From positions 369,582,001 through 369,646,000 of the forward strand of contig OZ024740.1 of the NCBI GenBank assembly GCA_964016885.1: 64,000 bases of DNA. Reading direction: 5' to 3'. This document shows, one piece after another, positions 4,372 to 63,324 of the stretch. Positions within the stretch are counted from its first letter, which is position 1. Each line of letters starts with the position of its first letter. The notes beneath the pieces were generated by a model. That model saw only the letters and a program-made list of their open reading frames with translations, did no database searches and had not been told where the DNA came from. The position numbers and the translations under genes are program-made. The DNA is from Eledone cirrhosa (Eukaryota).

Positions 4372-7300
4372 GTTTCATTTATTGGCCAAAAGGGCCGACA
4401 TATAGGGGAAAATACAAAAGACTGGAACAGTGGGGTTTTACAGAAAAATCGAGTAAACAATATGAATAGCAATAACAAAGTAACAATAACAAAGTAACAA
4501 TAAAGTAACAAGAAAATTACAACAAGAAAAAATTCCCCAATAGGTGGGGATGACCACCTAGGGTTCGCTCAGGTACCCCACCAGTCCTGAACGACCCGAC
4601 GCTTCGAGAACACCCTGGAAGGGCACCCCTCTCCTCCTCAAATTTACCTACCTACAGCTGCATGACCAGAGTAGGCCCACTCACACGGGCCATTCTCACC
4701 ACATTTACCCACTTTTCAGCAAATGTACTGGGGGGCAGCACTTCTCTCTCCACACTCACCTTCCTTTCCAAGTGAAACTTGAAAAAGTTGATGAGGGATT
4801 GGCCGAAGAGAAAAGAGTCTGTCTTCAGTCCTTTCAACCTCGTCCACCATACAACCTCTTTCGCTACTGCCACCAGGCAGAGGAAAATTGCCTGCCCTTC
4901 CTGGCCAAAAGAAGGCGGCGTTTCGATCTTCACTATGGACTCGGACCATAGCCGGATCCGTTCTACGCGTGACAACAGCTGTTCAACATAACTCATCAAC
5001 TCAGTAATGCACGGACATTGGACGAGTGCGTGCAGAACGGTTTCGTCGCTCTGCGCGCATCTCGGGCAGGTCCGTCTGACAGCACTTCCGTGCCTGTAGA
5101 GTTTATCTCGAACAGGCAGTGCCCCCGGTAGCACTGCCTAGCGAGGGATTTTGGGAAATTATCCACCGTCCACGGCACGAATGTCCTCCGGTACAGACTG
5201 GTTAGTTCGACTTCGTTGACTCCCAGAGCCACTCCGAGTGCGTCGTCGCATTTGCCCACCACTAATCATCTATAGAACTCGAGGGTGGAAGTTCCACTGA
5301 ACGCATTGCCCGGCTGGTAGAGGGCTGTGAGTGCCTGGCAACATTCCAGATGCCAGTCACCCAGTCTCGGTCTCTTATTGACCCAGGACTGCAGCTCAGT
5401 CAAAGAAACGAGCTGCGGAAATGCCCATCTGACAAACGGCGACCACACCTGTTCACCGTTTAGGCAGAATATATGGAGATGCCGCAGCCTCAGCGCGTGC
5501 CTGCGCATCATTAGGCACGCACGGCATGCCCAGCCCTCCACGTAGAGGCTGCTGGCAGCAGATGGACTGCCTCACCAGCGGAACCTGACCCCTCCACAAG
5601 AATTTGAAGAGGTGCCGCTCCAAGATGGCGAGGCGCGAACGAGGGCAAGGGACGATGGTCAGACGGTAGTAGATGACGGACGCGATATACGCGTTCGCCA
5701 CCTCCGCCCGACCTTTCAGTGATAGCTTCATCCCAGCCGATTTCTGGGTGAGACTGGCTACCCTGCCCGTCACCTCGTCCCAATTCTTATCCACCTGGAG
5801 GTCTGGCCCGAACCAAATCCCTAGCAACTTTACCCGCCCGTCCGTCCAGCGCCTAACGACGCTGTTAGACGGCATAGACTTGCCTCTCCAGGTGCCGAGT
5901 TGCAAGCCCACCGACTTTTACGGGTTAAGTTTTGCTTCCGTCAACCTTTCATATTCTTCCAATAATTTGCCGACCACCTCGATTTCTGAGGGGTCCGACA
6001 CCATCACGGTGATGTCGTCCGCATAAGCCGCCACAGCCTTTCCGCGTCCCGGTTCGAGCGGGATGCCCTGCAACAGCTCCAGCTTCCTCAGTAAAGGCTC
6101 GAGAGTCAATACGTAGAGAAGGGAGGAGAGAGGGCACCCTTGACGGACCGATCGGGAGACCTGAAACGGTTCCGAGAGGTGGCTATTCATTTTGACCATC
6201 GAGAAGGTGCCGCTGTGCATTGCAGCGATCCAGCTTCTGAAGACGGGGCCGTAGCCAGCCGCCTTGAAGACAGCCTCCAGGTACCGATGGTCGACCCTAT
6301 CGAATGCTTTCGATTGATCTAAATTGATTAGTGCCTCACCGAAGCCAGGTTTACACCCTACCATCTCTATGATGTATCGCATTAGGTGGAGGTTGTCGTG
6401 TATGGACCTGGTTGGGATTGTGCAAGTTTGCGCCTCCCCAACCAAATCCCCGACGACAAGCGCAAATCACTTCGCTAACACCCTGGGCAAAATCTTAAAC
6501 TCTGTGTTTAGCAGAGTTATGGGCCTGAAATTGTCTAATGTGTCCCTCTCGTTCTCGTCTTTCCTCATCAGCGTCACTACAACCCGGCTCACAGAACTGG
6601 GAATACTCCCGATTTGCTGCCAGTTGCAGTAGAGGGCTTCGAGGAGATTGGAGAACAAGTCTGGCATATTTACGTAAAGCTCTAGGGCAGACCATCCAAA
6701 CCGGGTGACTTGCGCCTCATGCAGACGACAAGGGCATCCTGAATCTCGGCTGAAGTAATTCGCCTTTCGCAGCGCCCAGCGTCAGCCGTCGAGAGTTGCG
6801 ACAAGCCATCGAGGTAGGGACTGAAGTCCGCCGCGATCTCTGACCCGCCACTTCCCCCTAACACCGAGGAAAATGTTGGCGAAAGGTCTCACACATCCTC
6901 TTGGAATTGCTCAGCTCGTGCCCGTCTCGGACCGTCAAAGACCGAATCGTGGTTTTATTACCACGCTGCGCCTCTGCCACGCGGGCCCATCGAACAGCTT
7001 TGGTTCCCTCGTTTCTCAGAGCACGCGCCTTATCTCTGACAATGCAACCTTCGTGTTTCGCATTGAAGAAATAGTCTAATGCCATTCTCACCGCTAGCAC
7101 GTCAGTTGCAATGCCACTACCAATAGCCTCGTCTAACTTATCTACCAAGTCCCCCCTCCTTTCTATTTTTCTCTAACGCTACTTCTTTGCTAAACTCTAT
7201 CGACATTACTCTAATCTCTCTTTTGAGAGCCCTCCCACCATCTATTGTTGACAACTCCCCCTGTCAACTTTTTCTTAACTAAATTGTTGACCTGGTCCCT

Positions 7301-8890
7301 GTAAGCCTTACGTGCCGGAAATGACATGTTTAGCTTCCAGTAACCAGCTACTAACCTACGCGTCTTATCTAGGTCGACCATACAGATCACAAACTTGTGA
7401 TCTGAATAGGTGACCGTTTCTAAACATGGACAGCTTACACTATTTCTGTCTATTTTCCTAATGAATATCCTGTCTATATACGATCTAGATGACCCTATGC
7501 GGTTAGCCCAGGTCCACACTGGCGCATTAGGGAAATCTATTTCGTACCTGTCAGATAGTTGGAACTGGCTGATCAGGTTCTCGACGCTTGTGCACCCCGC
7601 GCTCCAATCCAATACTCCCACACAGTCCCAGCGTGCGTCTAAGATGCCGTTCAAGTTTCCCGCTAACAGTAAAATGCGAGACGTACCCAGAGAGGATTCC
7701 GGTCGTCTAAAGAAGTCCGGCCGTCCTTTTCCGGTAGAGGCGTAGACGGCCACCAGTCTAAAGCACCACCTTCGCTATTGTTCAAGTCAAGGACCACCAA
7801 CTTAAGATCGACCTTACCTCGAGATCCGGGCCTTTTCTAAACTGCACTGCCGCCCCGCCTCCCATTCCCGGCCGGCTAACAGATGCAAAAATCTGATAGT
7901 CGTCGAAAATGGTGGCTAGTGCGCGCGTGTCGGAAATCCTGGTCTCGCTGACGGCAATTACATCCATTTCTATAGACCTGAGGTCGTTGAGCAGGTGACC
8001 CTTCTTCCAGGACGATCCCAGGCCTCGAACATCTAAACATCCTACTCTTAATACGGCCATGTTGGCAGGTTAAAAAGAGAGAGAGGAAGGTTTACTTGCC
8101 ATCCGGGCTCTTGTGAAGGTCGAGTGTTTGACCTCCATAGTTGTTAGGATTTCTTATGAGAACCCCTTTAAAATCTTGAAGTGGGTTTTACGTTCGGGGT
8201 TCCCACGTCCCTAGGAAAGCTGTCTCGTATTTCTTTGAATATATCGAGCGACATTCGCACCAGGACCAAATCTTCCGGCACGCGATATGTGCTTGATTTT
8301 AAAATGTCCCCCTCTTTTTGTATATTTTCACTTCGTGCTACGAGGGCCTTCAGTTCCTTGTTGGCCCTCCTGACGAGCACGAAGTTTTGTATGTTTTGTT
8401 GGTGTGATTTTATTTATTTGCGTGGCTGTGGTGGTGATGGTTTTGGTGGTGTTGTTTCGGTTGTATCTGTGTTTGTTGTGAGTGCGGTGTCTGTGGTTTC
8501 AGATATTTGTGTGTATATTTGTTCTTGCGTCTGTTTAGGTTGTTTGCGTTTGGGGGATTCTGGTGATGGTGATGGTGGTGTTGTTGTTGGTGTTATTGGA
8601 GAGATGTTTGCGTCCGTGGTGTCTGCGTTTTTTATTGTGGGTGATTTTGTGCTTTGTTGAGTTTTTTTTTTCTTTTTGTGTTTCCTTTTTTTGTATTTTG
8701 GGGGATTTTGGTTTTCCCTCATCTTCACTACTGGTAGATGAGAGGGTCTGAGTCTGTAAGTGTTTCTGTATGTATGTTTATAGTTTTATTGGTGTGTGTA
8801 TATTTGAGGGGAAGAGGAATTTGACAGCTTTCCTCGTTTCCCTGCTGGGTGGTCAATGTTGCTGGTTTTGCCGGTGCTGGTGTTGGTTGT
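4370..8890 (-). mobile_element. Tx1/L1-clade LINE, near full-length and frameshifted (partial ORF1; ORF2 APE endonuclease-RT-zf-RVT)
   Basis: APE: LRVGCLDVRGL, VIAVSET, WTW, SYIDRIF, YSDHK, GYWKLN. RT: KSPGLDGLP, NFRPITLLNTEFKI, LDQSKAFDRV, VRQGCPLS, AYADD. C-terminal CPRCAQSDETVLHALVQC. 3' AATAAA plus (ATT)n. Confidence 0.93.
4652..8060 (-). pseudogene. Disrupted ORF2 (APE-RT-zinc finger) of the Tx1-like LINE
   Basis: Consecutive ORF-track fragments from 7782-8060 to 4652-5134 in different frames. Confidence 0.9.
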
Positions 8891-8899
8891 GGTCCTCGC

Positions 8900-11800
8900 C
8901 CCGGTGTAGGGAGCAGTTCGAATAACGGTGAAGAGGAGACTGGAACGTCATGTGACAGACTCTCATCCTTGGCTCAGCAGCAGGAACCTGATTGTCAACC
9001 AAATACTGCTGGTGTCGGAGGAAGAAGAAGAAGGAAAGGGACCAGACCAACTGGATGAAAGAATTGAATAGAACTGTTATGCAATGTTACCTGAAGAGTA
9101 ACCCCAAGGAGAAAGGCTATAATAAACGGATGCATAACATCTGGAACGAGATTGGTCTATTTAAATTAGATGAACAAAAATTGTCCGGGCAGGCTCGGGT
9201 ATTAAGGACTAATGGGTGGATAAGCGAGCTGGAACTGGAGGAACTGAGCAGAGAGACTAGGTTGCAAATGGAGAGTGGAGTATGCCAGGCAAACGAGCCA
9301 GTGGGAAATGAAGGTGAAGAGGTTGAGAACACGGAGGAACCATCCGAAGCAGACAATGATATGAATGCTGAAATAAATAATACCTGGAACAAGGATAAGG
9401 CCATTGAGGAGATGAATACTGTCGGGCTAGGACAAGATGTGGTTGAAATCCGAAACTTAGTGGTAGATGAAATTAACAATGATAGTGGGAAACCTATGTA
9501 CCTAAGATTTGTAGACAGGAAAAAGTTAAAAGAAACAACAGCTAAGGTAAACAAAGTCATCCCATACCTTGAGGCGAGGAGCTTTCACCAGTGCAACAAT
9601 GTCCTCAAAGTAACAGCAAATACGGTGAGCAAATTACTTGGCATAAAAGCGAGTGTAAACAACAAACAAGAAAGATCAGAACCTAGGTGGAAGAAACGAC
9701 TCAATGGTCAAATCAGGGAAATGAGAAATGAGATTGGAAAGCTTGACTCCCTACTATATGGGACATTAAAAACCATAGACACTAAAAATAGACTGGAAAT
9801 AAAGAACAGAACTGGGAGGAAAAAGCTAAATATTATCATAGAGGAACTGAATCAACGCATTGTAGCAAAGAGTGCAAAAGTTAGGCGATACGAGAGCAGA
9901 GTCAGTCAGTATAGTCACAACCGCATGTTTGACAACAACCAGAAGATGTTGTTTGGATAGTTTGAAGGGAAAGAAAGAGGCAACAACTTGATCCTTGAGG
10001 CGGAACAAACTAAGACATGTTGGAGAGGAATATGGAGCAGGATGTTAAACTTAATGACCAGGCAGTGTGGATTGAAACAGTACAAAGGGAGATTAGTGAA
10101 CAGGCACACCAACAAACTGATTTGGGTATCACAGTTGAAACTCTTAAGGGGCAGGCCAAAACACTAACCAACTGGAAATCATCAAGCCCAGATGGTGTGC
10201 AGGGGTATTGGATTAAAAATATAACATCCCTCCACCCTAAACTGACAGCCATGTTCAATGACTGCTTGATGTCAGGTGAGGTACCAGAGTGGTTTGCAAA
10301 AAGTACCACAGTTCTGATAATGAAAGACCGAATCAAGGGTAATGATGTTACCAACTATAGACCTATCACATGTCTGTCCTTAATGTGGAAACTTTTAACA
10401 AGCATTGTGTCTGAGGAAATCTACCATCACCTCCACACAAACAACTTGTTACCGAACAGAAAAGATGCCGAAAGAAGTTCCGTGGTACAAAGGACAGTTA
10501 CTTATTGATAAGATGGTAATGAGGAATTGCAAGAGAAGTTACACTGGTCTTGCCATGGGATGGATAGACTACAAAAAGGCATTTGACATGGTGCCTCATT
10601 CTTGGATCACCAAAAGCCTAGAGATCTTCAAGGTGTCAGATAACATCAGACAGTTGTTGAGCAAAAGTATAAAGTCCTGGAAAACAGAGTTAACATCAGC
10701 TGGAAAATCCTTGGAAGGCGTGAAGATCAAGAGATGTATCTTCCAGGGAGATAGTCAGTCCCCTCTGTTGTTTGTCCTTGCCCTGATGCCCCTGACCATT
10801 ATACTGCGAAAAGTGAGAGAAGGATCCAAGTTGGGAAAGGGAGAGCTTACCATCAATCACCTCCTCTTAGTGGACGATATTAAGCTCTTCGGGAAGAGAA
10901 AGAAGGAGGTGGATGTGCTTGTTGACACTGTCCGTATTTTCAGCAATGATATATGTATGCAATTTGGTATTAGTAAGTGTGGAGTCCTTGTGGTGAAGAG
11001 GGGTAAATTGATCAGTCAGAAGCAACGGAATCCATGTACCAACAGGTGAGATGATAAAGGAAATTGACACTGAAGAAGGATACACGTATTTGGGTCTTCT
11101 GGAGGCTGATGACATCAAGAACAAAAACATGAAGGAATTGATAAGATATGAATACATTCGGAGAGTAAGGTGCGTATTAAAGTCACATCTGAACAGTAGA
11201 AATGCCATAAGTGCAGAGCTGTGTCTATTATTAGGTACAATGAGGGGATTCTGCGATGAAATGTTGCTGAACAAAAAGAAATGGATAGGAAGACTAGGAA
11301 GCTATTGACTATCTACAACATGATCCACAAGAGGAGTGATGTCGATAGACTCTACTTAAGGAGATCTGAAGGTGGAAGAGGTCTTATCAGCATAGAGGAC
11401 TGTGTTCAGATGGAGAAAAACAACCTACACAAATACGTGACTGATAGTAAGGAGCCAATGCTCAGAATTGTACTGAAGGAGAGTTCTATAAGACCAGGGA
11501 TGTCCAAGGAGCAAATAACAACGAGGAGAACGAGCTGACTTCATGAAAAATCCCTTCATAGTACCTTCTTTGAGAAAACTGAATTCAGAGATCCACAGAC
11601 ATGGAACTGGTTGAAAAGAGGAGACCTTAAAAATGCTATAGAAGGAATGCTAAAGGCTGCGCAAGAGCAGGCCCTCAAAACGAAGTGGCTGAAACACCAT
11701 ATTTACAAGGAGGAGGTTAGCCCACTGTGCAGGGTCTGTGGAGAGAGAGAGAAGATTGTGGCTCACATTGTATCCGAGTGTAAACACCTAGCCCAGACTC

Positions 11801-32950: not shown

Positions 32951-33028
<78 letters not shown>

Positions 33029-33029
33029 T

Positions 33030-33398
<369 letters not shown>

Positions 33399-35373: not shown

Positions 35374-35427
<54 letters not shown>

Positions 35428-35660
35428 GTATATATATATAGATATATATATATATAAGTATGTACACGTACATACATATATGTATACAGACGTACAGTAG
35501 TATGTATATATATATACATACATGCACACATATATATATGTACGTATGGATTCACCGAATATTTATTATAATGCTCGGTGTGTTTGTAAACAAACATCAG
35601 GTATTGAGCCGTAGTGGCTAGCAACCATCATTGCTCGTTTGTTCAACACTGACAAAAGAA

Positions 35661-35701
35661 CGCTGTACTAATTTCAAGCTTATTAGCTATCGTCAGCAAG
35701 G
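35661..35701 (-). ncRNA. Minimal type I hammerhead ribozyme (family G, copy 1)
   Basis: ttg-CTGACGA-t-agct aata agct-t-GAAA-ttag-TA-cag. Confidence 0.75.
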
Positions 35702-36065
35702 TATACCTTCCTGCCAGATTGTTGAACGTATATACTTACCTTATGCATATTAACGGCTGAGTAGCCCAATTTGCATATCGAGTGGGTTAATCGGCCGGGT
35801 GCACCGAATGCGATAAACGGAAAAAATGAAACGAAATATCATTTCCCACACTTAGTACGGCTGTTACTTAAATATAAGTATGTACACGTATATACATATA
35901 TGTATATAGACGTGCAGTAGTATGTATATATATATACACATACATGCACACGCATATATATATATATGTACTATAATGCTCGGTGTGTTTGTAAACAAAC
36001 ATCCCGTATTAAGCCGTAGTGTCTAGCAACCATCGTTGCTTGTTTGTTCAACACTGACAAAGGAA

Positions 36066-36106
36066 CGCTGTACTAGTTTCAAGCTTATTAGCTATCGTCA
36101 GCAACG
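36066..36106 (-). ncRNA. Minimal type I hammerhead ribozyme (family G, copy 2)
   Basis: cgttg-CTGACGA-t-agct aata agct-t-GAAA-ctag (palindromic loop)-TA-cagcg. Confidence 0.82.
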
Positions 36107-36242
36107 TATACCTTCCTGCCAGAATGTTGATCGTTTTCGGTGCACCCGGCCGATTAACCCACTCGATATGCAAATTGGGCTACTCAGCCGTTAATATGCA
36201 TATGGTAAGTATATACGTTCAACAATCTGGCAGGAAGGTACA

Positions 36243-36283
36243 TGTTGCTGACGATAGGTAATAAGCTTGAAACTAATACAGCG
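36243..36283 (+). ncRNA. Minimal type I hammerhead ribozyme (family G, inverted copy 3)
   Basis: tgttg-CTGACGA-t-aggt aata agct-t-GAAA-ctaa-TA-cagcg. Confidence 0.7.
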
Positions 36284-36400
36284 TTCCTTTGTCAGTGTTG
36301 AACAAACGAGCAACGATGGTTGCTAGATACTACGGCTTCATACGGGAAGTTTGTTTACAAACACCCCGAGCATTATAATAAATGTTCGGTGAATCCATAC

Positions 36401-36443
<43 letters not shown>

Positions 36444-36569
36444 CATGTATGTATATATATATACATACTACTGTAAGTCTGTATATATATATGTATGTAC
36501 GTGTACATACTTATATTTAAGTAACAGCCGTACTGAGAGTGGGAAGTGAAATTTCGTTTCATTTTTTCC

Positions 36570-36616
<47 letters not shown>

Positions 36617-39368
36617 ACAAAGGAATTGTGTTAAGGAACCAGATGGACTATAAAGCACCAGATTACTCAATACTTAGGGTAGTAGAGTGAGAAATAGGAA
36701 GAAGTATGAACCCGATGGCAATCTCAAGCCGTTTCGACGGCTATTTCTGGACTAAATTAGAATGTTTAGCCTGGTGAATAAACAGCCGAACTTGTCAAGG
36801 AGGTACCTCCTAATATGGGAAGATTGTAGTTGACAAGAGGATTGGTTAACATGTGTTGTAAACACAAAAATGTCTATCATGGCATTTGATAGGAGGTAGA
36901 GGCGGCTGAACTTGCCTGTAGAACAATAGGAGTGTGAGTGGAGCGTTCAAGCGTTGAAAGTAATATGTATACACCATAACCTAAGGATAGTGTATGAAGT
37001 GGAGGAGGGAGGTTATAGAATAGGTAAATCGAATGAGAGTAGGAGACAATAAAAGCTACTAGAAAGAAATAGAAAAAATATATAAAATTAGATAGTGAGA
37101 CATGAATAAAAAAAATCACAATGCTATCTTACAATTACAGGTTAATAAGTTGAGAATAGAAAACACTTGTAGAAATTACAAAACTGATACAAAATTAAAG
37201 GGGGTTAACACATCTGCTATAATTAGAGGAAAAGAAAATGTGTTTCGGAAAAGTCCAAGGCCGTAAGGAGCGGTAAGGTAATAATAGAATCATAGTAACT
37301 CTATATGTCAAACTGGATAAATTTAGTGTCTCGTTTGTCCTCCATATTCCTGAAACATGAGATTACTTCCTGGGCGCTGACCCATAGGCTAAGTCTCACG
37401 TTTTGCTTAACTTTTGGTATAAATCGGTCTAGGATATTTTTACTGATTCTCCCTATATCCGACCTCATTGGGTTTATATGCCTAATGGATGGTTTGCGGT
37501 CGAAGTCGGATTTGTGGTCCTTCAGTGTGAAGTAGGAGTCCGTGGGTCTAGGGGTTCAGTGCTGTCGGCGACCCCGAGGCTGGAGGTAATTTGTTGTCCA
37601 TCTCGCTTTATGTCCTCGATAATTGAATGGTTAGCCTTCTTATAGGTGGGCTTAGGCTGCTCCTGATCAGTGTGTGGTATCTGTCAGGGTTGACGAAGTA
37701 GAGGTTTCCAGTTTTGTCCGAGTGCACCATAATGTCGTTGTTGTTTACATACTCTGTTATTATTTTATGGAGTTGTTGTAGGAATCTGTTGTGTCTGGGT
37801 TTGAATTTAATGCCCTTGACCAGGTAGGAAAGGACGTTCTCGAAGGGTTAGAGCATAGGGTTCGAAGGGGTAGATTTGTATGTATTGAATCCGAATCTCT
37901 CCTTGGTGTCGAAGTCCTGATTGTCGCGGTATCTATTGTAGATTAAAGTTCTTTATCTTAGTCTTTTAGCAAAAAGGTCGATTTGTTGCGTGAGCATCCG
38001 AAGGTAAAGTTTTCTCGGTGGAACTGGGATGTTCTTTGGTGGAGAAGTCGATGTTGTGTTTTCGCATCGTGCGGGTGAAAAAACTTGAGCTGGGGGGAAA
38101 AGTCGGGATATAGCGTGGTAGAGTCTGAAAGTGCTCTACTACAGAGATAGGAGCGAAATAACAAAGGCATTTTGGTAAGAAAACAGATGTACCATAATGC
38201 ACCAGAGTACTAAATACTTAGGGTAGTAGAGTGAGAAATAGGTAAAGGTATGACCCCGACGGCAGAGCTCAAGCCGTTTCGACGGCTATTTCGGGAGTAA
38301 ATTAGAATTTTTAGCCTGGTGAATAAATAGCCGAACTTGTCAAGGGGGTACTTCCTTATATAGGAAGATTGTAGTTGTCAAGAGGATTGGTTAAAATGTG
38401 TTGTAAGCACAAATAAGTCTACAATGGCATTTGGTGGGAGGTGGGGTGTCTGAAATTGCCTGTAGAAAAATAGGGGAGTGAGTGGAGCGGTCAAGCGTTG
38501 AAAGTAATATGTAAAAAGCATAATCTAAGGATAGTGTATTAATTTGAGGAGGGAGGTAATGGAAAAGGTAAATCGAAAGATACTAGAAAGAAATAAAAAA
38601 AATATATAGAATTAGATAGTGAGAAATGAATAAAAAAATCATTATGCTATCTTACAATTACAGGTTAATAAGTTGAGAATAGAAAAAACTTGTAGAAATT
38701 ACAAAACTGATACAAAATTAAAGGGGTTTAACACATCTGCTATAAGTAGTTAGTGAAACGTATTCGGCCAATTCTATCTTAAAATTACAGGGATGGGGGA
38801 ACTGATGCTACAGAGGCCCGATGGGCTGCATCAGGCTGGGCGAAATGGGAAACGCAGACGAGGAAGAAAATAGGGGGTGGAAGGAAGTGATAGGATGAGA
38901 CTGGGGGAAGAAGAAGACAAAGAGGAAAAGAAAAGAGATGCAACTACCTATGTAAGATGGGATTTCCACTAACTTATTCGGCAATTGGGGGGAGGGGTGG
39001 GGTGGTATCAGCCCTTGTCTACCCACCCGGGGCGATATGGGATTTGAGGGCGGATAAGTTCTACGCGATCTGTGTTTGCATGCGGTTACCAGTTCGTCTT
39101 TCTTGTTTAGGAGTTGGTCCTTCAAAAACAGCATTTGTAATGTTTCTTCCGAGCATAAGTTACACGGACAGCGTCCTCCCGTGTAGGAGTTAGCTCTGGA
39201 CAGTAAGCTCCAAGACTCCCACCAAATGCCATGATTGACTTATTTGAGTTTACAACACATTTAAAAAAATCCCCTTGACATGTTCGGCTATTTATTCACC
39301 TGGGTAATTTAGTCCAGAAATAGCCGCCGAAACGGCTTGAGCTCTGCCGTCAGGGTCATACTTTTCCC

Positions 39369-52145: not shown

Positions 52146-52188
52146 GTCAGAGTTCTTTCGTCACACATTCTGTGACCTCTTCAGTAAC
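52146..52188 (-). ncRNA. Minimal type I hammerhead ribozyme (family B)
   Basis: gtta-CTGAAGA-g-gtcaca gaatg tgtgac-GAAA-gaac-TC-tgac. Confidence 0.8.
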
Positions 52189-57394: not shown

Positions 57395-58195
57395 TATTTA
57401 TTAAAATTACAAATTAAAGTTTAAGCAAAAATCGCTGCTTTAACCCTTAATAGGATCTTCTAAAACTAAAAAAATCATCTGTGAACGCAGAAGTAAATAT
57501 TTCGAAAAACGGAAGACGATACTTAGATTCGTGGAAACGTTCCCTGACAAAGAACGGAGAAAAAACGAAGATAATACGTCATTACAGTAAACCTTAGTTA
57601 CAGCATTATGTAGCAGTTGATGGTAAGTACTGCGCTCCACTTGATATAGAATGTCAGTTTTATTGGAATGGACGTGCACGGCATTAGAATCCTTAATAGA
57701 ACGAACTCTATTCTTCAAGTCCTGCTGGAAGGAATTGCTCCTATTCCGAAATTTGATACTCCGTATGATTTCTAAGACATCATTTTCGAAGGGTAGAAAT
57801 GTTGGGTTACTCGGAGCGTTATTATAGGTTTTAAACCCAAATTTATCCTGGTTGTTGTCAGCTTTTGCCTGATTATCGAAATAAAAGGCACGCCAACGCA
57901 ACCTTTTAATGAACGCCTCTATTTTCTGTATCAGGAGTTTTAGGTAAGTTGTTCCTGCTTGGTACGGGTATGTTCTTTGTAGAAATATTCAGATGTTGTT
58001 TCTCCATGATGAATATAAGTCAATAGAGTGCTCAACTGGTGGAGCCAAATAGTAATAATAATAAATTTGAAGACTAAAATCCAAAGAGGGCTCGATAAGG
58101 ATAAATATATATCAAATAAATAAGAACCGTAGAGCAAATATTTGTTAAAATAACAGATTAAATTTTAAGCAAATACTCGCTGCTTTCACCCCCAA
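57395..58195 (-). mobile_element. Family E PLE remnant: pLTR, ORF N-terminus, pLTR
   Basis: NISTKNIPVP, LRWRAFYF, FGFKT, HSNKT..YQV; HHR-like motif at 57418-57467. Confidence 0.82.
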
Positions 58196-59647
58196 TGGGT
58201 ATGCAAATACGGGCACATACGCAAAAACACGCGCACACATACAAAAACCCACGCAACGCTTGTACCCGCACACATACGAACGTATACACCAAATACACAT
58301 AAAACATATAACAAATATATATAGATGTGTGTGCGCGCGTGTGTGTGTGTGCGCGCGTATACATATAATTATATAAACGTATATAAATACACATATAAAT
58401 GCGTATATAACGCGCGCACACACACACCTACATGTAAATACACATATGTTCGCTAAACGTACGTCAACAAAAACATAAAGTACACATATACACACACCCT
58501 ACATACGTACAAACCCGTATACACACACAAACGCGAAACTCACGTATTCACATAACCATATACACATGTACCAGTATATATCATATAACATATACGCCAA
58601 TAACAAATACAAGCAAATATACGTACGAGAAAGTATACGTAACTTCACAAAACATACAGGTAATATATACTTACCTCTACCAATAAGTAATGGTATAAAC
58701 ATAAAATATACTTAGCTACTATATCAAGACGTACATTATCCACGTATTGTTCGTACTAACCGTTAGGGTATAAAGTGGGGCTGTAGTACAGGTAAGTGTT
58801 GTGCAAATTATGTTTACAAGCCGAAATTGCCTCAGATCTTTTGTTTAAGATGTGGTCATTGGCGTAGAGTATTTCCAGGTCTTCAGCGGTGCAGAAGTCA
58901 CATGGTCTTTTATTTCCGTTATACGATCTAGCTCTAGCTAGGATCTCCCAGTGTAACCTACATTGGGTGTGGTTGTCATTTAGACACCAGATATAAGCTC
59001 AAAGTGACGTAATATACCCTCTTAAAGGGTTAAAAAAGAATGAGTATGCGTGTAAAGACGCTGCTTCAATCTATTGGCGGTTAACACTATGTGGGCCCTA
59101 CGAGACGTGGGTGTCTTAACCTTACATTTGTAGACAATGTTACTAGAGAGGCATTTCGCGAATAGGGGGTACTCAACCCGATTCTGTCAATTACAGATAG
59201 TACTAGCTACAGGGTTCTACGTGTTCCTACGACTAGGTAATTTAGCTAAATTTGAAGCAGTAATGTTATGTGCAAGGTTAGGAGTCGTAGAGTAAGACAT
59301 GTTAATGGTATTTCTATTAAAAATGTTATTATATTTATGTGCTGGGGGGAAATGCTTCATAATGAGGGAGAAAAAGATCTTAGCTAATCGTGTGGCCACC
59401 TCCATATATTATGGTGGGTTATACCATATAATGCGTCGAGATCTATTTTTCCTAGGCCTATGCTAATACGCGGTATATGCTACCTTGTCGACAAATCCAC
59501 TCCGAGCAAGAGCTTCATTGTAATATGTGGAATAGTCGGTGAAAATATGCTCGTTTGTAGATAGACGGGAAAGTCTCAAAAGAAACGTTTCTTACCAGGT
59601 TCTTGGTTATGCTGGCAGGGTGGTTAGAATGCTTGCTTATGTAATTA

Positions 59648-59833
59648 ATTGTTTCTACGTTAGGCACAAGGCCAGCAATTACCCAGTGCATTACTGGTAC
59701 TTTATTTTATCGACCCCGTAAGGATGAAAGGCAAAGTTAACCTCGGCGGGATTTGAACTCAGAATGGCAAGGGCCGTAACTCTATACGTCAAAGCATGGC
59801 GTCCGACCCTCTATCAATAGTGCCAATCCACCG
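59648..59833 (-). mobile_element. SINE inserted in the PLE, with TSD gcttgcttatgtaatta
   Basis: Direct repeat on both flanks. Confidence 0.92.
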
Positions 59834-60662
59834 CTTGCTTATGTAATTAAGCGTATCACTTGGCTTTCTATACGGGTAATACAAGCCATTCGACAAATTG
59901 AGGGTAACGTCGAGGTAATTAACGACCGAGAGGCTGGCCTCAACCTGTATGGAGAGATTGAAGCCTTTAAAGAAGGCTGTGAGTTCTTTTCTGTACCTGT
60001 CGCAAGCACGTGGGCCGCACTTTGTCATTGTCAAAAGACCGTCATGACGGTACAAACCACCGCCCACGTTGGGGAATTCTTCCTTGATAAGGAAAAGAAG
60101 GAATAAGCCGATAAGATCAGTAACCTCCGCAGAATCGCTGTCACCCATACTCCGCAGAATCGCTGTCACCCATACATCGAATGGGGTACTATTAAATTTT
60201 TTAATCCAAATAGATTCGTCTAAATTAATCACCAACTTACGGGCATTGAGGATGATATCAACTTCTAAATCCTTAACCACTGTGAGCGTTTTAGCGAAAT
60301 TGATAGCTCTAAGAAGTGGTAAAGTGATATAGGAGTAGTAACTATTGATGTCAAATTGGATAAAACGGCAATGTTCCTTGTTGCACATGCCGCTGAACCA
60401 ATCAATCACCGCGAAAGAATTGTTCCAGAGTGCAAGAGGGGCCAAGCTTCTAATTTCAGGTATAATTCTATCTAAAATCCTTTTACTAAGTCTATCTATA
60501 TCGGACTTCGTAGGGTTGATAAGCCGAATAGAGGGGTTGTTCGGGAAATTAGATGTGTGATCCTTCAGGGTTAAGTGGGGAGAAATAGGTTCGAGATGTT
60601 TACTCCGGTCCATGATTTTGAGATCTGAGGTGATTTTAAACCCAGCATCGTTGATGTCATTA

Positions 60663-60853
60663 ATTGTTTCTACTTTGTGGCAGAAGGCCAGTAATTATCC
60701 CAGTCTATTACTCGTACTTTATTTTATCGACACCGTAAGGATGAAAGGCAAAGTTAACCTCGGCGGGATTTGAACTCAGTCCGTAAATGGTCGTAACTGT
60801 GCTGCAAAGCATGGCGTCCGACCCTATACCGATACTGCCAATCCAGCACCCTT
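60663..60853 (-). mobile_element. SINE (variant A) with TSD cgttgatgtcattaa
   Basis: Direct reading. Confidence 0.9.
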
Positions 60854-61914: not shown

Positions 61915-62000
61915 GTACGTTATTCCGGGTTGAATCGGAGGTAACCACAGCAAGTAAGGTACTCAATACATAGCAGAGTATAAAAGTTTTAAAATAGATG

Positions 62001-62051
62001 AGATTCTACAGGACTAGAACTGTTTCATTCTTTAGAAATCATCAGGAATCT
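62001..62051 (-). ncRNA. Type I hammerhead ribozyme (family L), intact core
   Basis: agattc-CTGATGA-t-ttc taaa gaa-t-GAAA-cag ttctagtc ctG-TA-gaatct; 6-bp stem I, 4-bp stem III. Confidence 0.85.
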
Positions 62052-62322
62052 GGGTATCCAAAAATAAAAGTGGTATATATAGGTCTTTTCAGGTGGTAGG
62101 AGAGGGTGGGGAGTGGGATTAGTAGGGGTCATTGTTTGATAGAAAAGGGAATTCATTAAAAGCTAATTCTTTAAAGCTATAATTTATATTTAGAGTGACA
62201 AAGGCAGAAAGAATTCTATAAACAAGTTCAGATTGGGGTGACATTCTTTATTTTTAAGTTTCTCTTAAGCTAAAAATGCCTATATTTCAGGTGTCTATAG
62301 GATCGTTGGGGGTCGGTCAGGG

Positions 62323-63324
62323 TTGAAGGATTTCGCCCTGCACAAGTTTAACCCCAGAACCACCGATGGGTTTCGGAGAAACTTACGCTCGTTCTTCTCT
62401 AATCTAGGATTTAGTATAACTATAGAATCTAATATGACTAGGGCTAACTTCTTAGATGTCACTCTCGACCTAGATACCTCCCTCTATTACCTGTACCACA
62501 AACCTAACGAGTCCCTCAAATATAGTAATATTAATTCTAACCACCCCAAAAACATCACTGATAACTTAGTAAAAAGCGTCTGTATTAGAATCCCTGGCCT
62601 CTCTGCCTATGAAGATATTTTTAACGCCTCTGCCTCCTACTACAATGAAGCCCTCGCCCGCAGCGCATTTAAAGAAAAGATAACCTACCTAGAAACCACC
62701 GTAAGACTGCAGAGGGGTAATAGGCATAGGCAGATTAGCTGGTACAACCCTCCCTTCAACAGAGAGGTCTCTACACCTAGAGCTAGGATTTTATTCACTT
62801 TGCTGAAATCACACTTTCCCATACAACATAGGTACTACACCATCTTTAATAAGAACACAATAAGACTCTCCTACTCCACCACACCTAACCTAGCTAGGAA
62901 TATAACCAATCACAATTCTAAAAAATTAAATAAGCCAACCATCTCCGAACCCAATCTCCGGACTGGGGTCTTGTGTAATTGCCTAAATAAGGAAGCCTGC
63001 CCACTTGAAAACAAATGCCTGACAAATGATATCGTATACAAATGCGATGTCATCTCAGGCACCGATGATTGCAACAACAAAAATACTTACATCGGCATGA
63101 CTTCCAAAAACTGTAAGACCTGTTGGTATGCCCATACCAACTCCTTCAGAAGACCGGACAAATCAAACAAGACAGCACTCGCCTCCTATGTTTGGGACCT
63201 CAAAAGGAACTCCACCCCTTCACGCTTAAATGGAAAATACTCCAGAGAGCCCGCTCTTACAAGGGCAGCTAACTTTGTATCTCAGAGAGCTACGAAATGT
63301 TATTCGCCAAGGGTCCGCTACTGA
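62323..63324 (+). pseudogene. PLE RT thumb plus GIY-YIG endonuclease fragment
   Basis: ORF track; frameshifted near the C-terminus. Confidence 0.85.

What the first reader, a model, noticed from the sequence alone, without database searches (positions are those of the whole stretch)
35452..36575. Retrozyme-like array: two same-strand HHRs 405 nt apart plus an inverted, circularly permuted full monomer
Seen: a ~420-nt non-coding unit repeats head-to-tail, with minus-strand HHRs at 35661-35701 and 36066-36106. At ~36135 the array flips. The inverted part starts at the complement of ...gggtgcaccgaa and ends at the complement of taaacggaaaaaa, sites only 5 nt apart (tgcga) in the unit, so it is almost exactly one permuted monomer. 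No RT lies between the repeats. Known: metazoan non-LTR retrozymes are tandem HHR units of a few hundred nt that yield circular RNAs and are thought to borrow PLE machinery. Inference: a cephalopod retrozyme family copied from a circular or multimeric RNA.
Basis: partly seen in the sequence, partly recalled or inferred. Interest (0 to 1): 0.75.

Follow-up and report, generated by a model that had tools for sequence, protein, structure and literature searches.

The report
Hammerhead retrozyme with Penelope-type insertion ends
This is one ageing copy of a 422-base, protein-less repeat found over 11,000 times in this animal genome; it carries a predicted self-cutting RNA motif, and its back-to-back arms end at two fixed sites inside TA repeats, so it was likely pasted in by a Penelope-type jumping-gene enzyme copying a probably circular RNA, while the exact one-unit length of its inverted arm is most likely chance.

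Summary
The locus is one insertion of a 422-nt ORF-less type I hammerhead repeat (11,409 exact core matches genome-wide), laid down as two head-to-head arms between (TA)n tracts. Across the family, arm 3' ends fall at two fixed sites 57 nt apart (3,797 and 4,033 exact junctions with TA). Of 97 head-to-head pairs, 66 are long+short, none long+long or short+short, and 31 have one end unassigned. This is the Penelope 'tail' signature. 5' ends are scattered and show no pile-up at the ribozyme cut site or at one full turn, so the 'exact permuted monomer' is chance. A circular template is likely but not shown: arrays are internally identical or repeat with 2- or 3-unit periods, the unit folds with compensatory changes, and changes shared within an insertion show an A-to-G excess. 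No copy examined was the pLTR of an ORF; the driving element was not identified, though TA-targeting Hydra-type PLEs with open frames abound. Only one of the three hammerheads here is intact. It is a new member of the known animal non-LTR retrozymes, and this scan has already reported the same family on other DNA.

The parts
35376..35451 (.). (TA)n target tract at the 3' end of arm 1
35452..36134 (-). Arm 1: about 1.6 tandem units, 5' end at unit position ~359-363, 3' end at the short site (unit 216-219)
35660..35702 (-). Hammerhead A, predicted cut between 35666 and 35665; impaired (stem I mismatch, U-G in stem III)
35666..36070 (-). Cut-to-cut unit of this copy, 405 nt (family unit 422 nt, 17-nt net deletion)
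36065..36107 (-). Hammerhead B, intact type I motif with palindromic stem III, predicted cut between 36071 and 36070
36126..36134 (.). Head-to-head (5'-5') junction of the two arms with imperfect microhomology
36130..36573 (+). Arm 2: exactly one unit (274 to 273), 3' end at the long site
36242..36284 (+). Hammerhead C, predicted cut after 36278; damaged in stems II and III
36405..36516 (+). TA-rich hairpin segment of the unit (unit ~119-216), with an expanded TA run in this arm
36517..36573 (+). 57-nt Penelope-type 'tail' between the short and long 3' sites, present at this end only
36574..36616 (.). (TA)n target tract at the 3' end of arm 2, shared with the 3' end of a separate Hydra-type PLE

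Best explanation
The locus is a single insertion of a 422-nt, protein-less hammerhead repeat whose two back-to-back arms end at two fixed sites inside TA repeats, likely written by a Penelope-like (probably Hydra-clade) reverse transcriptase-endonuclease that primed on both strands of the TA target and copied a probably circular RNA. Shown: family size, unit, ribozyme fold with covariation, the two fixed 3' ends, scattered 5' ends, the long+short pairing rule, read-through of the cut site. Inferred steps: (1) tandem arrays are transcribed on the hammerhead strand and cut at GUA, probably by paired ribozymes since stem III is a 2-bp palindrome; (2) a long stem holds the unit's ends together and a host ligase closes monomer and sometimes dimer or trimer circles; (3) the PLE enzyme nicks both strands of (TA)n, and one 3'-OH starts cDNA at unit 273-275, the other at 216-219; (4) each cDNA runs round the template, stops at random and the two are joined by microhomology. 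My odds by step: non-autonomous PLE-mobilised element 0.93, ribozyme active in the family 0.85, circular rather than linear multimeric template 0.65. This copy is probably dead as a circle source: only hammerhead B is intact.
For: 11,409 core matches. Two fixed ends followed by TA: 3,797 and 4,033 exact junctions genome-wide; in hammerhead-picked loci 91 of 122 arms end at these sites. Pairs: 66 long+short, 0 long+long, 0 short+short, 31 with an unassigned end, of 97; in the subset not picked on ends 19, 0, 0, 17 of 36. Of 80 long-end arms, 48 cross the cut site, 35 exceed one unit, 43 have an inverted partner, 38 of them short and none long. Stem I position covaries U-G 210, G-U 70, A-U 37, C-G 5 of 336. 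Circular fold z -7.1, -9.6, -5.7, sense strand more stable than antisense; 11 of 120 pairs with changes on both sides. Arrays identical within (L215: both arms, 7 units, one private haplotype) or periodic ABAB (L214, L223, L062) and ABC (L226, L227). A>G 12 versus T>C 1 among changes shared within an insertion, 42 versus 36 among single changes. Hydra-type PLEs with 713-759-aa open frames and TA-anchored ends are abundant.
Against: Cleavage, ligation and circles were not shown. No driving PLE was identified: the unit has no significant likeness to the ends of three PLE families (p 0.36-0.86 in 5 of 6 tests, 0.043 in one). Some arrays are heterogeneous (L220, L065, L106, and the 38+ unit L216/L217), and periodic arrays can also arise by DNA-level duplication; the long arrays were hand-picked. 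No stall is seen at one full turn. The two arms of this window share no derived change (rank 0.39), so this locus itself says nothing on a single template. In vitro, a Poseidon PLE inserts uncleaved RNA and needs no ribozyme activity (PMC11167929). The A>G test rests on 13 events.
Confidence: 0.68

Rival explanations
1. Same PLE-driven insertion, but the template is a linear, uncleaved multimeric transcript from existing arrays; homogeneous and periodic arrays come from later DNA-level duplication and circles play no part.
For: 5' ends are not enriched at the cut site, which fits uncleaved RNA as well as circles. [quoted passage not shown] A long, old, heterogeneous array with an internal 4-unit repeat exists (L216/L217). 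Eight of nine Xenopus retrozyme dimers did not cleave in vitro (bioRxiv 10.64898/2026.07.22.740005).
Against: Young arrays at different loci are each internally uniform for their own haplotype, including across both arms (L215, L213), which needs a one-unit bottleneck at insertion. 108 of 134 array units have their nearest neighbour in their own array, ties included. Ribozyme stems and the end-joining stem covary.
Confidence: 0.22
2. The unit is only the pseudo-LTR of an autonomous PLE that I did not find; the copies are its 5'-truncated ends.
For: Tail, TA targeting, inversion and hammerhead are all pLTR features (PMC8557442). Only about 180 of several thousand insertions were examined.
Against: Arms longer than one unit wrap into the same unit (35 of 80; 4,943 read-through junctions). 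In the 82 hammerhead-picked loci only L103 has a same-sense PLE ORF just upstream, and it ends in its own 3' end and a TA run. Of 316 arms, 3 abut a PLE reference at the 5' side, each at a PLE end.
Confidence: 0.05
3. The inversion is a fold-back: one cDNA self-primes and copies itself, as proposed for rotifer Penelope elements.
For: Proposed from palindromic junctions in PMC3846280. Arms of a pair are more alike than arms of other insertions (65 of 65 below the median), and a few junctions map to the same unit position on both arms (L213, L038).
Against: In most pairs the two 5' ends map to unrelated unit positions (here ~360 and 274), either arm can be the longer, and each arm has its own fixed TA-anchored 3' end.
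Confidence: 0.04
4. Satellite DNA or an assembly artefact with no RNA stage.
For: TA-rich, palindromic surroundings are error-prone.
Against: Thousands of dispersed copies with identical polarity of fixed and ragged ends; arms differ by about 5%; strand-asymmetric fold and A>G excess.
Confidence: 0.01

Closest known systems
Animal non-LTR retrozymes (Cervera and de la Pena 2020, PMC7229834, parts 2-4 of 6 and keyword passages read, supplement not seen; Li, Clavereau and Pollet 2026, bioRxiv 10.64898/2026.07.22.740005, parts 1-3 of 5 read, supplements not seen)
   Same: Short ORF-less tandem units with one type I hammerhead each, GC under 50% (35-39%), thousands of copies, self-paired fold with the ribozyme free to form, PLEs in the same genome. 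The U-U at the base of helix II with a 2-bp helix III resembles axolotl HHR_Amex2.
   Different: Unit 422-474 nt, at the top of the 150-450 bp range. The parts read do not describe two fixed 3' ends, head-to-head arms, (TA)n targeting or 2- and 3-unit periods for retrozymes, nor any cephalopod case. No pLTR homology to a PLE was found here, unlike 21 Xenopus matches. Circles were shown by northern blot there and not here.
Insertion units of endonuclease-bearing Penelope-like elements (Craig et al. 2021, PMC8557442, passages and section 11 read; Arkhipova et al. 2013, PMC3846280, passages read)
   Same: 5' truncation, partial tandems, inverted 5'-truncated copy at the 5' end, one-sided tail, (TA)n targets as in Hydra and Naiad clades, hammerhead in the terminal repeat.
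   Different: No ORF; the unit closes on itself; tail 57 nt rather than 30-40; the tail is tied to one arm in every classifiable pair (66 of 66).
Poseidon element PAc of Anolis (Frangieh et al. 2024, PMC11167929, parts 1-2 of 4 read)
   Same: Two internal reverse-transcription start sites that bound the tail; both DNA strands cut and extended; AT-rich targets.
   Different: PAc is autonomous and starts at a site unlike the target; here both start sites end in TTAT, which could pair with a (TA)n primer. The assignment of one start site to each strand is not reported there (no strand difference was seen).
Non-autonomous Chlamys elements such as MRC1 (PMC8557442, passage read)
   Same: ORF-less PLE passengers forming multicopy head-to-tail insertions.
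   Different: Those resemble their autonomous partner at the 3' end and mostly lack canonical hammerheads.

Membership tests
Animal non-LTR retrozymes | Short tandem units of a few hundred nt, no ORF | tested here: met
   422-nt unit from 35 distinct monomers; 466-474-nt subfamily; no ORF
Animal non-LTR retrozymes | One type I hammerhead per unit | tested here: met
   Core, 6-bp stem I with covariation, 4-bp stem II, palindromic stem III in 336 motifs (the motifs were picked by a core pattern, so core conservation is biased). No Rfam hit at gathering score
Animal non-LTR retrozymes | Low GC; no LTR, PBS or PPT | tested here: met
   GC 0.35-0.39; ends are TPRT-type, not LTR-type. PBS and PPT were not searched by a dedicated scan
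Animal non-LTR retrozymes | Highly self-paired monomer with ribozyme free to fold | tested here: met
   Circular MFE z -5.7 to -9.6, 68-69% paired; compensatory pairs
Animal non-LTR retrozymes | Self-cleavage of the transcript | not testable with these tools
   Needs in vitro assay; no genomic footprint of run-off at the cut site
Animal non-LTR retrozymes | Expression as linear and circular RNA | not testable with these tools
   Only indirect signs
Animal non-LTR retrozymes | Co-occurrence with, and likeness to, PLE pLTRs | tested here: inconclusive
   PLEs abundant; no significant likeness to three families tested; other families untested
PLE-type insertion unit | Fixed 3' ends with an optional tail, ragged 5' ends | tested here: met
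PLE-type insertion unit | Inverted 5'-truncated copy at the 5' end | tested here: met
   33 of 72 hammerhead-picked loci; 43 of 80 long-end arms
PLE-type insertion unit | Target-site duplication | tested here: inconclusive
   Hidden by (TA)n at both ends
Autonomous PLE (pLTR of an ORF-bearing element) | RT plus GIY-YIG ORF joined in sense to the repeat | tested here: not met
   None in the loci examined; a sample, not the whole genome

The most novel reading that the evidence does not exclude
The family records a full mechanism not shown in the papers read: a Hydra-type PLE enzyme acts on both nicked strands of one TA site, assigns one of two start sites to each strand, and rolls round ADAR-edited hammerhead circles of one, two or three units, so that genomic arrays are direct cDNA copies of monomer, dimer and trimer circular RNAs. 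This would explain the head-to-head, one-sided-tail structure of all endonuclease-bearing PLEs and give the first evidence for rolling-circle retrotransposition of animal retrozymes.
Probability: 0.4. Interest if true: 0.72.

Novelty: new member of a known kind. Interest (0 to 1): 0.48.

Why it matters
The class is known, but how animal retrozymes get into genomes is only hypothesised in the papers read, and how PLEs make inverted ends with a one-sided tail is called open there. This family gives thousands of young insertions with a strict long+short rule, mapped start sites, periodic arrays and candidate enzymes in the same genome, so both questions become directly testable. The locus itself is an ordinary, decaying copy.

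Tried and rejected
Exact-monomer length as a sign of a circle: rejected (2 of 85 long arms, 2.4 expected; 0 of 70 short arms at their own start, which left out the best-hit loci L002-L030, the hand-picked L213-L232, and 37 long and 12 short arms whose 5' ends fall in the unmappable hairpin zone). Run-off at the cut site: a hint in small samples was not borne out; genome-wide 23 truncation-type matches at the site, 32 one base earlier, of which 10 share one upstream triplet, 15 six bases earlier; my downstream control was mis-specified, and only 12 of its first 100 rows are valid, about 33 of 272. One arm blocked by the other's primer (tail-only arms): not enriched. Neighbouring PLE (36614-39239) or the two other window families as the parent: no pLTR likeness. 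A shared start-site hairpin with these PLEs: none evident by eye. Neptune as the PLE clade: dropped for Hydra after checking DKT and CxCX5C motifs. Sequencing runs: no RNA holder listed; contigs of four runs laid add nothing on expression. Pfam on eight PLE fragments gave only sub-threshold RVT_1 hits. A first alignment script timed out. Literature searches returned no paper on cephalopod retrozymes or on retrozyme insertion ends; supplements of the papers were not seen and could list such families.

Full report
Observation. The region holds a tandem non-coding unit and an inverted arm as described. Hammerhead cores start at 35696 and 36101 on the minus strand and at 36248 on the plus strand. 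Read on the ribozyme strand, arm 1 runs from 36134 down to 35452 and arm 2 from 36130 up to 36573, so the arms are joined head to head and both 3' ends lie in (TA)n. The family unit, cut site to cut site, is 422 nt (35 distinct monomers); 405 nt here reflects a deletion. Arm 2 is exactly one unit. Rfam has no match at gathering score.

The family. The window lies in a 3.0-Gb genome. A 26-nt core pattern matches 11,409 times, with 0 for the control. I mapped arms in consecutive hammerhead-picked loci, consecutive loci picked on one 3' end, best hits and hand-picked long arrays. A second subfamily of 466-474 nt behaves the same way.

The ribozyme. It is a type I hammerhead with a 6-bp stem I, a 4-bp stem II over a U-U pair and a 2-bp palindromic stem III, the build that PMC4209133 (passages) says works as a dimer. 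One stem I pair varies U-G 210, G-U 70, A-U 37, C-G 5 of 336 motifs. Natural units fold as circles far below shuffles (z -7.1, -9.6, and -5.7 for the window unit; 60 shuffles), with the two ends held by a long stem and the sense strand more stable than the antisense. An alignment of 24 units chosen for diversity gives 120 pairs, 11 with changes on both sides, 97.7% of cells paired against 22-49% for slid controls; these cells reflect few independent events and the structure was derived from the same alignment. In this window only hammerhead B is intact; A has a stem I mismatch and C has breaks in stems II and III.

Insertion footprint. In hammerhead-picked loci, 46 of 122 arms end at unit 213-223, 45 at 272-276 and 31 elsewhere; 71 of the 91 fixed ends are followed by TA repeats against 5 of 31 others. 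Genome-wide the two junctions occur 4,033 and 3,797 times. After merging overlapping loci (216 to 182), 97 head-to-head pairs remain: 66 long+short, none long+long, none short+short, 31 with an unassigned end, some of them mapping artefacts of the internal hairpin; in the subset not picked on ends the counts are 19, 0, 0, 17 of 36. Junctions mostly overlap by a few bases or carry short fillers. This is the one-sided tail and inverted head described for PLEs (PMC8557442, PMC3846280), and the tail equals the span between two reverse-transcription starts in the PAc enzyme, which cuts and extends both strands (PMC11167929).

Template. Of 80 long-end arms, 48 cross the cut site, 35 exceed one unit and 6 exceed two. 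5' ends do not gather at the cut site or at one full turn, so cut linear monomers are not the main template and the exact length of arm 2 is chance. Among 26 arrays, 108 of 134 units have their nearest neighbour in their own array (ties included; L216 and L217 are one array counted twice). L215 has one private haplotype in all 7 full units of both arms; L214, L223 and L062 alternate two units (neighbours differ at 10-14 sites, next-but-one at 1-2); L226 and L227 show a 3-unit period; L220, L065, L106 and L216/L217 are heterogeneous. Arms of a pair are closer than arms of other insertions in 65 of 65 testable pairs (of 102 before merging), 26 in the lowest 5%, though same-age subfamilies could give part of this, and the window's own pair is uninformative. 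Following a lead from earlier notes, rare changes shared within an insertion show A>G 12 versus T>C 1 (p 0.003), single changes 42 versus 36 (p 0.65), as expected if the hammerhead-strand RNA was A-to-I edited before copying; RT error bias is not excluded. Circles explain these patterns most simply; linear multimers plus DNA duplication remain possible.

The driver. No arm examined continues in sense into an ORF. Two very abundant PLE families with open frames of 713-759 aa carry the DKT and CxCX5C motifs that define the Hydra clade, which targets (TA)n, and a third lies beside the finding. They show the same paired ends at TA, and one has a hammerhead with U-U under stem II and a CTAG loop, but none shares significant sequence with the unit. 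L059 and L163 join the repeat head to head with PLE pieces; these may be mixed-template events or insertions into older PLEs.

Comparison and verdict. It meets every sequence-level feature of animal non-LTR retrozymes (PMC7229834; bioRxiv 10.64898/2026.07.22.740005) and works like a PLE insertion unit without being an autonomous PLE. Searches and keyword look-ups in PMC7229834 and PMC13282606 found no cephalopod retrozyme or account of retrozyme ends; supplements and repeat databases were not seen. Earlier notes of this scan describe the same family and mechanism on other DNA; my end mapping preceded them, and they are not independent support. New member of a known kind, interest 0.48.

Noticed in passing
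window 36614-39239 (-): Broken Hydra-type PLE (DKT motif) in partial tandem, period about 1544, sharing the TA tract. Its hammerhead has core TTGACAA, a U-A in place of the C3-G8 pair (variant recalled from the literature, no call), with long stems II and III.
   Followed up: partly
window 61915-63324: Hydra-type PLE family A, inverted pLTR with hammerhead core at 62045 (-) and ORF piece on +; family has copies with 758-aa open frames.
   Followed up: partly
window 57440-60694 (-) and about 33020-33240: Hydra-type PLE family B pieces; 713-aa open frames elsewhere; its hammerhead-like motif departs from the core consensus; tail about 86 nt by eye.
   Followed up: partly
window 30250 (+), 52184 (-), 52325 (+), 55633 (+), 32866 (+), 30763 (-), 43069 (+), 42500 (+): Further hammerhead-like motifs of other families, one pair head to head at 52184/52325.
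   Followed up: no
L224:1-7501, L225: Very young 466-474-nt subfamily; L224 holds at least 16 near-identical units running off both ends of the stretch.
   Followed up: partly
L216 and L217: Array of at least 38 diverged units with an internal 4-unit repeat, a satellite-like offshoot.
   Followed up: partly
L059:150-2470 and L163:1500-1900: Repeat joined head to head with a PLE endonuclease fragment (L059) or with the tail of PLE family B (L163); possible mixed-template insertions that would name the driver.
   Followed up: partly
L103:1900-3100 laid on runs X4 and X6: Contigs of runs coded as organisms B and C carry related units (2 and 15 contigs at 85% or more); run type and origin not on record.
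   Followed up: no
window 4652-7774 (-) and 8992-11049 (+): Decayed LINE-like ORF fragments with RT-like motifs, named by eye only.
   Followed up: no
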